This document shows, piece by piece, positions 27,001 to 33,000 of a stretch of 64,000 nt of DNA. The number at the start of each line of letters is the position of its first letter. The first letter of the stretch is position 1. Position numbers: made by a program. The DNA comes from Styela clava (taxonomy: Eukaryota), in the NCBI RefSeq assembly GCF_964204865.1, contig NC_135261.1, positions 16,678,001 through 16,742,000 on the forward strand, given 5' to 3'.

Positions 27001-30000
27001 ATAAAGGAAAAATATTGTATCTGTTAAATTGTCGTTGTTCTGGTTGTTTCTAGTAACTTATGGACTTATCAAATTCTAAATTCAGAACATTATATAGGAA
27101 AAGTCGCTGGAAGGCATGTTGTATTTGACCCCGTGTTTATGAAATTAATAAATTTTTGATCTGATATTAAAAGATTTCAGAATCGCTCTCTTGGTATCGA
27201 CATAGCCGACTTATATTTACATTACCCATGTAGTTTGTTGAGTCGAATACCGACTGATCAGGGAGCGAACCGTAAAGTAGAACTAGTTGAGGAAGTCCAA
27301 CATTTTTATCGAGAATGCTGTGAAACATGCTTTTGTTTTGATAAAATCATGAATTGTTTTTTGTTTCAGGCTAATCCACCAAAGTTACATTGTCCTGAGC
27401 CAGAAATGCCTTCTTGTATTTCATTTGGAGTATTTCTTGCAATAGCGGCTGCTCAAGTTATCATTTTACTTATCTATCATTCCATGAGGTAAGATTGTCA
27501 ATCAAGTGTTTCAAATCTTTGCAGATTTTTTTATGGAATATTATTACAAGATACATATAGCGGGCAACTGGCGCTAGGGCTGCGTGAAATTACATTCAGC
27601 TTCGAAACTATACTCCAGCAAACTTTGACCTATGCAAGCACTCTTTGTTTGTTAAGGATAGTTTTGAAGTGTTATACTAGCAAATTTTGACTTCTAAAAA
27701 TGTGACTCTGGCTTATAGTCCTGATTAGCATGAGAAACCGGTTGAAGGGAATTGTGGTTGACGATTCTGTTTTATCATTTGTGCCTAAATATTGTCCCTG
27801 TATACTCGGAATACAGAAATCATGTCTATTCTAGTTAAATTGCACTCTAAAAGCCTAACACTAAGTCTGAAATAACAACACTGCCTCCAATGCCATTAAA
27901 CATATTTGGATCTTCTTTTGTGTGTTAATACAGGGCTTCAAGGGAAGATGCAGCTAAGAAATTCTTTTAATGAACAAAAGATCGGAATTAAGGTATTGAA
28001 CTGATTTTCAAGTTGGATTGACGTGATGTGGGATTTTAATACTGTGTGACGAGAAAAGACAAGTGTCCAAAGTGTTGAAAAATTACAATAAATATGGATA
28101 GATTAGGACCAAAAGTCTTTAACATTTTTTTTGCCTATGCTCGTTCTAACCTTTTTTTATCGTTAATTGGAAATGGTAGATTAATTAATTGGTGGTGGGT
28201 GGTACAATTTTTAAAATTATTGCGTGGTCGGAGTGTGTGACATAAGAAATTTATTCAATTTTTTTTTATTCATTGTATGTAGATTTCTTATGATAATATT
28301 TTGACCCATAACATTTGAAGCTGTTGAAACAAAAACCTCCTCTATAGAGCCATTGAAGTTTTTTGTCTGTATACCTAATTGCTAAAAACAGTGTATATTA
28401 CCCTTCTATATTTTGTGCAATTCTATGAAACTGCCTAAAGTGAAGCTCTCTAAACCTGCCAAGAGAAGCAATCGTATGAAGCATCACCATGTCATTTTTA
28501 ATTTAAAATATGATTAATTAAATTCAGTGTCTGCTATTGAATGCAATAATAAATAAATATATATAGAATCTAGCTATTTGTGTTTTTCTTTTAGTGTTTC
28601 TTGACCCATTATAAAATAGAATGAACAATATTGCTGTGCAGGGACTGAGCACTCTTGGGAGTGTAAAAGTCAGGGGTAAGAAGGTAGTTTTGCATTTCTT
28701 TCAGTTTACAGTACCTAAAATAGCGTTTGGAAATTATTTGGTATCTATGGCGATTTTATCGTTCTCCCGGTGTTGTTGACGATTAATATAGCTCGGTTTA
28801 TGCCGGCAGATTCATTTATGAGCGAAGACAAAGGATCACAGCCGACAGGAAAGATTTAGAATTGAGCCAGGAATGTCTTCTTGCATTTGATTTGGCATAT
28901 TCCTTGCAATAACAACTGGTAAAGTTGTCATTTTCCTTATCATTCAATGAGGTAAGACTGGTGGCTATCGGTTTCAAATCTTTAAATATATTGTTGGAAT
29001 ATTATTACAAATTTATAGTGCAAGCAATTGGTACCAGGGCTGCATAAAATTACATACTAGTCCAGGGATAGCTAATTATCGATTTTAATCGGTAAGTATG
29101 TTGATAGGTATTTGTCTGTCTGTCTGTTAGATGCACGCAATATCTCATGAAAGCGAGATTGAATCTGCTCCAGATTTTGCATGTGCATTCATCATGTCGG
29201 ACCAGAAGCCTATTAATTTTGGATGAATTATGTCGTATAATTAGCGAGTTATTAATTAATTAGTGATGGGACACAAGGTGTCACTATGGAGTAAGAGCGC
29301 TGTTTTGGGGATCCCGACTTTCAATCGATAAGTCTTCGGTCTCTGATCGATATTTTCGTTTGAATATTGCGACCTTCGAGTACCGAATATTGCACACACA
29401 TTTTCAGCATAGCGCAGCCGCCCACATTTTGATCAAAAACATTTTCACTGGGCGCATAGGTGTGAATACTGTTCCATCACATCTTTTCACTTAGAAGCAA
29501 GAAAACAACAAATTTACAATCTTATCACACATTTTCTTTGTATTTTTACAATGATAATATTATTAGGTTTGGTAATAACAATGTTCCGGGATATTAGAAA
29601 AGTGAATAAATTTATGTGGGGGATTTTAGAATGTATTCGAAATTCCAGATTCAAATATATTTTTTCAGAATGTTATGGGCTATGGCCATCCCTGCGATAC
29701 TACATCAAACTACGTGATATTTAAAATCTCCAGCAAACTCTCTTTGTTTGTTGAGGATGCATAATCAACTATTCTATGGATTTTAAGTTTTTACGTGAGA
29801 AATTTGTACTTTCAAAAATATGACACTGCTTCACAGCCCTGATTAGTATAAGCAATCGGTTGTAGGGAATTTCGGGTTGGCGATTCTATTTCACCATTTG
29901 TGCACGGCAAGTTCGCACTTTGTCTGTATGCCTATCGCTAAAAACTGTGTATGTTATCTTACTATATCTTGTGCAATTGTATGAAACTGTCTAAAATGAA

Positions 30001-33000
30001 GCTCTCCAAACCAGCCAAGAGAAGCAATCATATGAAATGTTCCCATGTCATTTTTAATTTAAAAATTATTAAATAAATTCAGCGTCTGTTGTTGAATGCA
30101 ATAAATATATATAGAATCTAGTTATTTGTGCCTTTTCTTTTTATGTTTCTTGACCTGTAAAAAAAATAGAAAAAAAATTAATTGATGCGCTAGGGTGCGC
30201 GACTTCCCCACGTTGAGGCGAGGGTCATGTCATGTCCTACGGCCACGGGTTTGGAAAACACATATGCCGCGAACACATCGTCACATTTTTTATTATCTGT
30301 TTCAGGAGATATTTTTGCAAATCAGTGTTTAAATATTATTTAGTATTAAGGCGCTTTTATCGTTATCCCGGTGTCGTTGATTCAATTTATGCTGGTGGAA
30401 TAATTTACGAGCAACGATAAAAGCATCACAGCCGTCAAGAAAATTTTAAACCAGCGCAGCCATGATACTTCTCCATTGTGAAAATTAATTATTTTTATAG
30501 TTTTGTTGACGATGATTGCGTAAAAACATACAGTATCACGAGCATATTAATATTAATTGACTTGACGTTGACGATATCATTGGGCTAATAAATGACAGGC
30601 TGATAACAAAAATAAGCCATGTCGAAAAGTTTGTTAACGACTTTAATTTTACTGTCGAGGTTGAAACATTTCAGTATGATAATATTATTAATCACCGTAG
30701 GCCTAATTGCTGTCCTTAGATTTTAGGAAAGTGAATAAAATTCAAGTTTTGTGGGATTTTAAAATGGCCATCCCTGCACTTCACTTCACTGCTAATGTTA
30801 TTTTCAGGATTCTTCACTCTCTTATTATCCTTGAACAAATTTTGAAGCTGGACTACTATATTCACCTTTTTGTGTTTGCTCTTCTTTGATTTCTTTGGCT
30901 TTAACACTTCCGGATCTGAATAGAATAATGAAAGAAAGATTCACAAAACGAAGGCTCACCGCAAAGTTCTACAATAGTGCAAAACAATTGTATTTCACTT
31001 TCTGTAAATCAGAATTCTCCCGTACATGAACAACTTGAATAATACTGAATTACCAAAATATCACAATTGCACTGTGCATGAAATACACTCGAATAATACA
31101 CCAAGCACATATGCTTTAAAAAAGGGCAGGCAGTGCTGGTCTTTCCAATCAATGGTTGGTTGTATAAGGCCTTGTTTGGAGCAAGCAAAATACATGATAA
31201 GTGTTCTATAGGAAAAAATATCGGTCATAGGTAAGGCTGGGTGCTGTTTTGATTTTTGAAACGGACATTATGGCATCATAGCAAATGCCAACTGAAATTC
31301 GTCAAGGTCTAACGTTTTGAATTTTGACAAAATTATTTCAGATTCATATGACACCGCTGATTCAGAACAATCTGTGTCAACAGAAAAAGTGGCAAATGAG
31401 ATTTTTTGATTCCATCATCCTATTTTGTTTTCATATCAAAGACAAAATCTCGTTTCGATTTCGAAACATTGGTATTACCTGTTGAATTCCACAGTTTTGG
31501 AATTTTCACTGGAGGCAATGCTGGACCAAAGGAGCTATCTGTAGTTTCGATCTCAAGAGTCATAGAAGTTTCATTGACTGAAGAATCATTAGCACTTTCA
31601 TGTAGCGGACTCTTTTTTTCGCGAATAGATTTTGAGGAAAATTTATGAAAAGCTGGACGATGAACATCAGCAGATATTTTGGGCGATGTATGCTCTGTCC
31701 GAGACCCCAAAGAATCATTTAAAACTGAATTGTCCACTACCGGCTTTTGAAATTGTCCTAGAAGTGTAGCAGTGTTTGGTTTGTCATTTTTAGTTTGTAA
31801 ATTATCATTTTCTGAGTCACTATCTTCATCTGATGATTCGTCGGAATTTTCAAATATTGCTTTAAACAATTCCATTGAGGGTCTTTCTACTTGTTGTTCA
31901 TTTTCTTTCTTTAATTCTGTAGATAATTCTTTTAAGCTATCTGGTACTTCATTGGGTGCATGTGCTTTTTCAAATTCATTTGAAGATGCTGTATGATAAA
32001 TCAATGTTCAAGTATAAATTACTGTACTCTCGTAGTGTGTGTACCAGGTTAGGGTTAGATCATAATTTTATTCTGATTTTCCTGCTTTTAGTTCTATTAT
32101 GAGTTCGTGAACAGTCTGTGTTAGCAAGTAAATATACCCCCTGGCCATAGGTTTCAGTACCTTTACACAACTTGATGTAAAGTAGGCGAACAAAATTAGT
32201 TACCTCCATTACACACACTTTTGGAGCGCCGAACATGATGCAGCAGTACATCAGCATTCTCATTAGACATAAAACAATTTCAGTGACTGAGCTTAAAAAT
32301 TTTAAATTCAGGAATAGGAAACTTACAATTTTCATGATTTAGTTTCGGGCCTTGTGCTGGAGCTTCTTTGTCCCATCTTGAAACACTTTTCGAAAGTTTA
32401 TTAAACGTAGGTGGATTTTTAGTGTCACTAATAATACCAGTTGCCTTAGCTTGCGATTCAGAAACATCTTTGTAAGCGATAGGCTTCACTTGAGATAAAT
32501 TAGAATTCTTTTTTCTTTTAAAATCATCAGGATGCAGAAACATCTCGAGCGTACGATCAGAATTTGAACCAGGTATACCAACAATGTCAGAGCTATATAG
32601 AAGTAGAATATTGTAGAATTAGGTATACAGAGCGATGTTGAAGTCGAATTAAGATTCACATATTCATTCGAATCAACTTCATATACAAAAGCATATGGAC
32701 AAACACTTATGGTATCTATCATTATTAAGGTAAAGATATGACTAGAAAGTCATTGAGCAAGCAATTCCATCTTTAGGATACATTTAAAAAATAAAATAAA
32801 AATAGAGTCAAAAAGAAGACTAACTTGGGATACGGATTCGGTACATTGAATCTTTTACATAGAAGTGGATCAGGGTGCCATTCCACACATTCCCTAGTTA
32901 TTAATCCGAACATTTTCATTTTTGCAGCTTTCTTTTGAGAATCTTCTTTCTGAAAAAAAAAACATGATACATACATATAAAAAAATTGAACTAAACGAGA

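What the first reader, a model, noticed from the sequence alone, without database searches (positions are those of the whole stretch)
27396..30450. Overlapping 3' ends of convergent LMAN1 and GPATCH1 separated by tandem duplication with reciprocal decay
Seen: ~27396-28860 is repeated at 28863-30450. The left copy keeps functional LMAN1 exons 11-12, but its GPATCH1 terminal exon (~28573-28606) is dead: acceptor CAG became TGG and a premature TAA is present. The right copy has a dead LMAN1 exon 11 (no acceptor, TCA>TGA) and lacks exon 12, but holds the intact GPATCH1 last exon (VKKHKKKRHK*, 30154-30122). An AATAAA cluster at ~28548 lies next to the dead GPATCH1 stop. Inference: the ancestral 3' UTRs overlapped in antisense, and after duplication each gene kept its own copy, a subfunctionalisation by strand. 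A small piece of the last GPATCH1 intron (30677-30780) is also echoed at ~29551-29696.
Basis: partly seen in the sequence, partly recalled or inferred. Interest (0 to 1): 0.66.

Follow-up and report, generated by a model that had tools for sequence, protein, structure and literature searches.

The report
Old duplication separating two gene tails
In a sea-squirt genome the stretch where two facing genes end was duplicated long ago; each gene now ends in the copy nearest to it and the spare copies have decayed, which is a tidy but fairly ordinary piece of genome history.

Summary
Window 27396-28860 is repeated head to tail at 28863-30450 (BLAST E 2e-34, 2e-18, 4e-69; 78-82% identity, K2P 0.20-0.26). 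The window matches Styela clava. NCBI's ERGIC-53-like model ends in the left copy (27370-27488, 27934-27970). NCBI's GPATCH1-like model ends in the right copy (30154-30122).

The left breakpoint lies 26 nt inside LMAN1's penultimate exon, so the right copy never had that acceptor. GPATCH1 meets the right-hand terminal exon and a poly(A) signal first. Each gene therefore used the nearer copy from the start, and the far copies were surplus and decayed. That is partition by position, not complementary degeneration.

An ancestral 3' overlap of about 70-110 nt is plausible. A + strand AATAAA and a - strand ATTAAA cross each other and are kept in both copies. It is unproven, because LMAN1 also has a proximal AATAAA and such hexamers are common here. 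The "echo" is the tail of a 645-nt insertion private to the right copy, probably a dispersed repeat.

No transcript data or other tunicate genomes could be consulted. Interest is modest.

The parts
27396..28860 (.). Left copy of the tandemly duplicated unit. It starts 26 nt inside LMAN1's penultimate coding exon and ends in sequence homologous to GPATCH1's last intron.
   Evidence: BLAST blocks; block alignments.
28863..30450 (.). Right copy of the unit. It carries a 645-nt insertion and lacks the counterpart of left 27785-28361.
27370..27488 (+). LMAN1 (ERGIC-53-like) penultimate coding exon encoding the transmembrane segment. Acceptor tttgtttcag, donor AG|gtaaga.
   Evidence: 100% match to P0002 residues 469-508.
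27934..27970 (+). LMAN1 last coding exon, ending in KKFF and then TAA at 27968-27970. The 3' UTR follows.
28087..28092 (+). Proximal AATAAA, 116 nt after the LMAN1 stop. It lies in the part missing from the right copy.
28517..28557 (+). Distal + strand signal cluster: ATTAAA at 28517 and AATAAA at 28548 and 28552. The one at 28548 comes from 7 nt that the right copy lacks.
28574..28606 (-). Dead relic of the GPATCH1 terminal exon. The acceptor AG is lost, TAA sits at codon 5, and there is a 1-nt deletion. Its + strand is T-rich and sits just downstream of the AATAAA cluster.
28863..28951 (+). Relic of LMAN1 exon 11, truncated at its 5' end by the breakpoint. It has TGA at 28888-28890, a 4-nt deletion, and 10 nonsynonymous against 4 synonymous codon changes. 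The donor is still gtaaga.
29056..29700 (.). 645-nt insertion private to the right copy, flanked by TACAT on both sides. Its tail resembles 30669-30780 and, weakly, 11925-12032. It has no coding signal.
29919..30121 (-). Zone downstream of the GPATCH1 stop (its 3' UTR and beyond). It is homologous to left 28362-28572 at 88% identity.
30053..30058 (-). ATTAAA on the - strand, 64 nt after the GPATCH1 stop. It is the only canonical - strand hexamer before 29089 and is kept in the left copy at 28497-28502.
30100..30105 (+). Relic + strand AATAAA in the right copy, homologous to 28552 and 17 nt from the live GPATCH1 stop. A second one lies at 30072.
30122..30154 (-). Live GPATCH1 terminal exon: 10 K/H-rich codons plus TAA, behind ttttttttacag.
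   Evidence: It is the C-terminus of P0001.
30155..30865 (-). GPATCH1 last intron. The right breakpoint of the duplication lies within it, near 30448-30450.
30866..30915 (-). GPATCH1 penultimate coding exon, with donor AAG|gtgaat at 30866.
30669..30780 (.). Repeat relic in the GPATCH1 last intron, outside the duplicated unit. It is similar to the tail of the 645-nt insertion.

Best explanation
This is an old tandem duplication of a unit of about 1.5 kb that held the facing 3' ends of two convergent genes of Styela clava, ERGIC-53-like (LMAN1, + strand) and GPATCH1-like (- strand). One breakpoint lies inside LMAN1's penultimate coding exon and the other inside GPATCH1's last intron, so no whole gene was copied.

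Each gene reaches one copy first, because the genes are transcribed towards each other. LMAN1 splices and ends in the left copy. GPATCH1 splices 30866>30154 and ends in the right copy. The far copies were surplus from the moment of duplication and decayed neutrally. The right copy has a stop, a frameshift, loss of the region holding exon 12 and a 645-nt insertion. The left copy has a lost acceptor, a premature stop and a frameshift.

The net effect is that the two stop codons, about 600 nt apart in the single unit, are now about 2.15 kb apart, and the predicted 3' ends are about 1.4 kb apart. Any ancestral 3' overlap was removed as a by-product.

Shown here: the duplication, its breakpoints, the lesions, and agreement with the annotated protein ends. 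Inferred: polar (first-come) usage, neutrality of the decay, and the ancestral overlap (my odds about 0.45).
For: Three collinear blocks with E 2e-34 to 4e-69, and no other copy in the 64-kb window.

Divergence is 18-22% at ungapped sites, with many indels.

The left block starts at 27396 and the exon starts at 27370.

P0002 (NCBI ERGIC-53-like, S. clava) maps at 100% to 27370-27489 and 27932-27967. P0001 (NCBI GPATCH1-like isoform X2, S. clava) ends with the peptide encoded at 30154-30125.

GPATCH1 ends in a K/H-rich tail directly after the FGPALPP motif in 3 of 3 other named tunicate references fetched (Phallusia, Clavelina, Ciona), as the spliced S. clava model does.

The right-copy exon-11 relic has a stop, a 4-nt deletion, and 10 nonsynonymous against 4 synonymous codon changes.

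The left-copy GPATCH1 relic has the acceptor AG changed to GG, TAA at codon 5 and a 1-nt deletion.

The only canonical - strand hexamer within about 1 kb of the GPATCH1 stop is ATTAAA at 30058-30053.
Against: I saw no transcript evidence.

I saw no genome of another tunicate. The single-copy ancestor, the age of the duplication and the direction of the changes are therefore inferred from the two copies alone.

The 245-nt zone 28362-28606 is less diverged than the rest: 178 of 202 ungapped sites against 470 of 600, Fisher p = 0.002, and the excess is uniform across the zone. If the left copy were plain surplus there, this needs constraint on the right copy alone (which fits the roughly halved divergence, 11.9% against 21.7%), or gene conversion, or a retained function of the left zone as LMAN1's distal 3' UTR. 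I cannot tell which.
Confidence: 0.8

Rival explanations
1. The ancestral 3' UTRs overlapped in antisense. After duplication both copies were usable by both genes, and complementary degenerative mutations left each gene with its own copy (subfunctionalisation by strand).
For: The pattern of loss is reciprocal. A + strand AATAAA (28552 / 30100) and a - strand ATTAAA (28502-28497 / 30058-30053) cross each other and are kept in both copies. If both were used, the ancestral transcripts overlapped by about 70-110 nt (plus the textbook distance of 10-30 nt from hexamer to cleavage site).
Against: The right copy never had the exon-11 acceptor, because the breakpoint is 26 nt inside the exon. Its exon 12 lay downstream of LMAN1's own terminal exon and poly(A) signals. 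The left GPATCH1 exon lay behind the right exon and its ATTAAA. No phase of free choice is therefore needed or likely. The overlap itself is unproven: LMAN1 has a proximal AATAAA at 28087, and AATAAA is common (191 in the window on both strands, 151 expected).
Confidence: 0.15
2. There was no ancestral overlap. The two genes merely abutted, with stops about 600 nt apart, LMAN1 using the proximal AATAAA at 28087 and GPATCH1 using ATTAAA. The duplication was a neutral event with no consequence for either gene.
For: The proximal AATAAA lies 116 nt after the LMAN1 stop and is followed by a T-rich run. Hexamers are frequent in this 64% A+T sequence. The halved divergence of the shared zone fits constraint on the GPATCH1 side alone.
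Against: The distal cluster in the left copy is dense, with three hexamers in 41 nt, one of them on 7 nt that the right copy lacks. It is followed by a T/GT-rich stretch, which is how a used site looks. The raised identity reaches at least 200 nt beyond the GPATCH1 stop, further than a UTR ending near 30030 would explain.
Confidence: 0.45
3. Assembly artefact: two haplotypes, or a mis-joined read, placed side by side.
For: None beyond the exact head-to-tail junction.
Against: The copies differ at 18-22% of aligned sites. They also differ by a 645-nt insertion, a loss of about 570 nt and dozens of small indels. False duplications of haplotypes are near-identical. Both annotated protein ends need one copy each.
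Confidence: 0.02

Closest known systems
Partial (segmental) tandem duplication that leaves exon relics or pseudo-exons
   Same: There are two adjacent direct copies, neither holds a whole gene, and the unused exon copies carry stops, frameshifts and lost splice sites.
   Different: The unit spans the ends of two genes on opposite strands, so the relics are reciprocal: one gene's relic is in each copy. The duplication widens the gap between two convergent genes.
Duplication-degeneration-complementation (subfunctionalisation; Force et al. 1999, recalled, not read here)
   Same: The outcome is complementary: both copies are now needed to cover what the single unit did.
   Different: No whole gene was duplicated, and redundancy at the start is unlikely. 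The right copy lacked the exon-11 acceptor from the outset, and position relative to poly(A) sites fixes which copy each gene uses.
Convergent (tail-to-tail) overlapping gene pairs, cis-natural antisense transcripts and shared polyadenylation regions. Examples: ACAT2-TCP1 (passage in PMC2151771); Arabidopsis convergent pairs sharing a poly(A) region (PMC3032780, search listing and abstract start only)
   Same: The inferred ancestral unit has + and - strand poly(A) hexamers crossing within 50 nt, next to one gene's stop codon.
   Different: The overlap is only inferred here, and the present-day genes do not need to overlap. The passages I read on loss of overlaps (PMC2151771, PMC2335118) name loss of splice variants and changes of 3' ends, not tandem duplication.

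Membership tests
Tandem segmental duplication | Two direct copies with collinear similarity far above chance | tested here: met
   Three collinear blocks, E 2.4e-34, 1.9e-18 and 3.6e-69; 78-82% identity.
Tandem segmental duplication | Head-to-tail junction without intervening unique DNA | tested here: met
   The left copy ends at 28858-28860 and the right copy starts at 28863.
Tandem segmental duplication | Single-copy state in an outgroup or in other individuals | not testable with these tools
DDC subfunctionalisation | Both duplicates initially able to carry out every subfunction | tested here: not met
   The breakpoint at 27396 is 26 nt inside the exon that starts at 27370, so the right copy had no acceptor for LMAN1 exon 11. 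The positional argument for GPATCH1 is inference.
DDC subfunctionalisation | Complementary loss, so that both copies are needed | tested here: met
   LMAN1's end is intact only in the left copy and GPATCH1's end only in the right copy.
Convergent 3'-overlapping gene pair (ancestral state) | Mature transcripts of opposite strands share sequence | not testable with these tools
   No transcript data. Crossed hexamers kept in both copies allow an overlap of about 70-110 nt but do not show it.
ERGIC-53 / LMAN1 | Leguminous-type lectin domain, C-terminal transmembrane segment and KKFF tail | tested here: met
   Lectin_leg-like matched in 5 of 9 + strand ORFs, 4 of them above the curated cut-off. P0002 is named ERGIC-53-like and ends in KKFF. 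That KKFF is the ER-retrieval motif is recalled.
GPATCH1 | N-terminal DUF1604 plus a G-patch domain | tested here: met
   DUF1604 at 121.5 bits and G-patch at 39.3 bits, in 2 of 11 - strand ORFs scanned. P0001 is named G patch domain-containing protein 1-like.

The most novel reading that the evidence does not exclude
The single ancestral unit was a shared, bidirectional termination zone. GPATCH1's lysine-rich terminal coding exon, read in antisense, was the U-rich downstream element of LMAN1's distal poly(A) site, and the two mRNAs overlapped by about 70-110 nt. The tandem duplication pulled the two genes apart in one step. Since then each copy has specialised. The left copy kept the zone as LMAN1's 3' UTR and poly(A) site, gained a second AATAAA and lost the coding frame. 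The right copy kept the exon and GPATCH1's UTR. That would explain why the 245-nt zone is the best-kept part of both copies. It would also make tandem duplication a route for the death of gene overlaps that the papers I could search do not describe.
Probability: 0.3. Interest if true: 0.5.

Novelty: new member of a known kind. Interest (0 to 1): 0.3.

Why it matters
The locus is a clean, datable example of how a local duplication reshapes the boundary between two convergent genes.

It shows that reciprocal relics are what transcription polarity alone predicts, so such patterns should not be read as subfunctionalisation without more evidence.

If the ancestral overlap is confirmed, the locus becomes a natural experiment on the constraint that antisense sharing puts on 3' UTRs and on a coding exon. 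It would also add a new mechanism to the list of ways in which gene overlaps are lost.

In practice, the relics are traps for gene prediction: a donor-bearing exon-11 copy, and a K-rich ORF next to poly(A) signals.

Tried and rejected
Structured or known RNA as the reason for the well-kept 245-nt zone. An Rfam E-value scan of 27000-31200 gave 1 match, a bacterial sRNA model at 16.4 bits against a gathering score of 37, E 0.59, which I take as chance. Rfam at gathering scores over the whole window gave 0 matches. ARAGORN found 0 tRNAs. Folding gave z = +0.32 for the left zone (+ strand) and +0.78 for the right zone (- strand), so neither folds better than shuffles.

Coding content of the 645-nt insertion. 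Of 5 ORFs scanned, 0 reached a Pfam cut-off; one weak match had E 0.044 and 13.6 bits against a cut-off of 28.1.

Terminal inverted repeats of the insertion. A local alignment of its first 80 nt against the reverse complement of its last 80 nt gave only a weak internal A+T-rich match, score 9.5. The TACAT flanks are the only transposon-like hint.

A single global alignment of the two copies went astray in the middle. I replaced it with block alignments.

Cluster members of P0001, to see isoform X1.

Literature on duplication separating convergent genes. Searches (8 papers; 16; 3; 0; 1,223 holding 3 of 4 terms; 12 listed; 127; 10 listed), plus passages of three papers, gave no such case. These are word searches of open-access text, and no supplements were seen, so absence is weak evidence.

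Full report
Source and scope.
The window has no N and is 64% A+T. Single ORFs from it hit NCBI proteins of the ascidian Styela clava: 'G patch domain-containing protein 1-like isoform X2' (P0001, 836 aa; 1 hit among 1007 candidates) and 'protein ERGIC-53-like' (P0002, 519 aa). Both map back to the window at 97-100% identity, exon by exon. I therefore take the window for S. clava, not human, and nothing had to be withheld on that ground. 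I left out the step of joining exons into a spliced model. The only full-length proteins used were the database's own entries, and they were mapped locally.

The observation.
A self-BLAST of 26-32 kb and a BLAST of 27.0-31.2 kb against all 64 kb give three collinear direct blocks:
- 27396-27595 = 28863-29055 (E 2.4e-34)
- 27658-27784 = 29776-29903 (E 1.9e-18)
- 28362-28858 = 29919-30448 (E 3.6e-69)

Nothing else turns up in the window except the weak echo treated below. Block alignments give 154 of 190, 136 of 174 and 388 of 472 identical ungapped columns (81%, 78%, 82%). K2P distances are 0.22, 0.26 and 0.21, and there are 13, 34 and 83 gap columns. The left copy ends two bases before the right copy begins. 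The repeat is therefore real, tandem and old. At this divergence it cannot be a haplotype or an assembly duplicate.

The genes.
On the + strand, 5 of 9 ORFs between 21 and 27.5 kb match Pfam Lectin_leg-like, 4 of them above the curated cut-off. On the - strand, 2 of 11 ORFs between 30.7 and 38 kb match DUF1604 (121.5 bits) and G-patch (39.3 bits).

LMAN1's last two coding exons are 27370-27488 (transmembrane segment) and 27934-27970 (ending in KKFF, then TAA). Both lie in or at the left copy and are identical to the end of P0002. An unnamed relative, P0003, has the same architecture and tail.

GPATCH1's penultimate exon is 30915-30866, with donor AAG|gtgaat. Its terminal exon is 30154-30125 plus TAA at 30124-30122, behind ttttttttacag in the right copy. 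Together they give exactly the C-terminus of P0001.

That model is computed, and I could not see its RNA support. However, 3 of 3 other named tunicate GPATCH1 references that I fetched (Phallusia, Clavelina, Ciona) also stop in a K/H-rich tail shortly after the FGPALPP motif. Reading on from 30866 into the intron would instead add about 50 unrelated residues (the ORF 30716-30940).

The relics.
In the left copy the GPATCH1 exon copy (28574-28606) has GG where the acceptor AG should be and a broken pyrimidine tract. It also has TAA at codon 5 and a 1-nt deletion.

In the right copy the LMAN1 exon-11 copy (28863-28951) has TGA for TCA at 28888-28890 and a 4-nt deletion. It shows 10 nonsynonymous against 4 synonymous codon differences, with mismatches at codon positions 1, 2 and 3 numbering 6, 3 and 6. 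Left 27785-28361, which holds exon 12 and the proximal 3' UTR, has no counterpart on the right; only about 15 nt stand there.

The right copy lacks the exon-11 acceptor because the duplication starts at 27396, 26 nt inside the exon, and not because the site decayed.

The insertion and the 'echo'.
The right copy holds 645 nt (29056-29700) that the left copy lacks. Their last 150 nt resemble 30669-30780 in GPATCH1's last intron, outside the duplicated unit. The similarity is 67% over 98 columns, plus an exact 14-mer at the very end of both. There is a weaker match at 11925-12032 (65.5%, E 4e-5).

The 645 nt are flanked by TACAT on both sides (29051-29055 and 29701-29705), while the left copy has one TACAT (27591-27595). 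That is what a target-site duplication would look like, but a 5-mer is weak evidence. No inverted termini and no protein domain were found. I read the echo as two relics of a dispersed repeat, one of which landed in the right copy after the duplication. It is not part of the duplication.

How it most likely works.
The genes run towards each other. After a tandem duplication whose breakpoints lie inside both transcription units, LMAN1's polymerase meets exon 11, exon 12 and the + strand poly(A) signals of the left copy first. The right copy offers only a headless exon 11 downstream of them. GPATCH1's polymerase meets the right-copy acceptor at 30154 first. That acceptor is followed, 64 nt after the stop, by ATTAAA (30058-30053), the only canonical - strand hexamer before 29089.

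Each gene is thus tied to the nearer copy by position. The far copies are surplus at once and decay. The reciprocal pattern is the default outcome and needs no phase of redundancy with complementary losses. For that reason I do not file it under subfunctionalisation. This step is inference from the anatomy, not from transcripts.

Was there an overlap?
In the left copy the LMAN1 stop and the relic of the GPATCH1 stop are about 600 nt apart, which approximates the ancestral spacing. The + strand AATAAA (28552 / 30100) and the - strand ATTAAA (28502-28497 / 30058-30053) are kept in both copies, so they are ancestral, and they cross each other. With cleavage 10-30 nt after a hexamer (textbook knowledge), use of both would give an overlap of about 70-110 nt, and LMAN1's cleavage site would fall in GPATCH1's terminal coding exon. 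The antisense of that Lys-rich exon is T/GT-rich, which is what a downstream element looks like. The left copy has a further AATAAA on 7 extra nt.

There are three points against. LMAN1 also has a proximal AATAAA at 28087. AATAAA occurs 191 times in the window on both strands, against 151 +/- 12 expected, or about once per 670 nt of strand. And I have no 3'-end data. I put the overlap at about 0.45.

An unexplained detail.
The 245 nt from 28362 to 28606 are the best-kept part of the unit. In the UTR zone 178 of 202 ungapped sites are identical (88.1%), and in the exon 30 of 34. Over the other five segments the figure is 470 of 600 (78.3%); Fisher p = 0.002. The excess is even across the zone: 99 of 113 and 79 of 89 in its two halves. 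Divergence there is about half that elsewhere (11.9% against 21.7%).

Half the divergence is what constraint on one copy alone would give. Partial constraint on both copies, or a later gene conversion, would look the same. Known RNA families and RNA structure do not explain it. Only an outgroup can decide.

Comparison with what is known.
Partial tandem duplications with exon relics are commonplace. Convergent genes with overlapping or shared termination regions are well described. I saw a passage on ACAT2-TCP1 in PMC2151771, and only the listing and abstract start for PMC3032780 and PMC1524920. In the passages I read on how overlaps are lost (PMC2151771; PMC2335118), the causes named are loss of splice variants and changes of 3' ends. 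Tandem duplication is not mentioned. Word searches found no such case either. These searches cover open-access text only, and I saw no supplements.

Verdict.
The feature is a real, old duplication whose reciprocal decay is explained by transcription polarity. It is a neat locus, and it is worth a look in other styelid genomes and in 3'-end data. On present evidence it is an ordinary kind of event in an unusual position.

Noticed in passing
window 14702-16711 (-) and 16861-18270 (-): Two neighbouring genes are each one uninterrupted ORF. One is an Integrator subunit 10-like protein of 669 aa (Pfam INT10, 287 bits). The other is a class II Asn/Asp/Lys-type tRNA synthetase-like protein of 469 aa (tRNA-synt_2, 229 bits). 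LMAN1 and GPATCH1 next door have a dozen or so exons each. This could reflect intron loss or retrocopies.
   Followed up: partly
window 10938-11156, 18461-18757, 38265-38461, 40004-40258: A dispersed repeat family of about 200-270 nt, 64-75% alike, in both orientations. Two members flank GPATCH1's first intron region. It has no tRNA or Rfam match.
   Followed up: no
window 40356-41516: A younger local tandem repeat: 40469-40793 matches 40786-41121 at 94.7%, and 40356-40465 matches 41407-41516 at 89%. Tandem duplication is therefore active in this region at several ages.
   Followed up: no
window 49664-49924 and 56345-56605: A 261-nt pair at 99.2% identity, 6.7 kb apart, in direct orientation. 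It is a recent copy or a young mobile element.
   Followed up: no
window 39075-39516 and 62931-63417: Two elements of about 400-490 nt, each similar to its own reverse complement (62-73%) and 78% alike to each other. They are palindromic, MITE-like elements. The first lies about 250 nt downstream, in gene sense, of GPATCH1's first coding exon (39831-39760).
   Followed up: no
window 28545-28551: The left copy has 7 extra nt that create a second AATAAA in tandem with the conserved one (28548 and 28552). The right copy has one (30100).
   Followed up: partly
window 28949-28957: The right-copy relic of LMAN1 exon 11 still has a consensus donor (AG|gtaaga) although its reading frame is dead. This is a possible cryptic splice site on read-through transcripts.
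   Followed up: no
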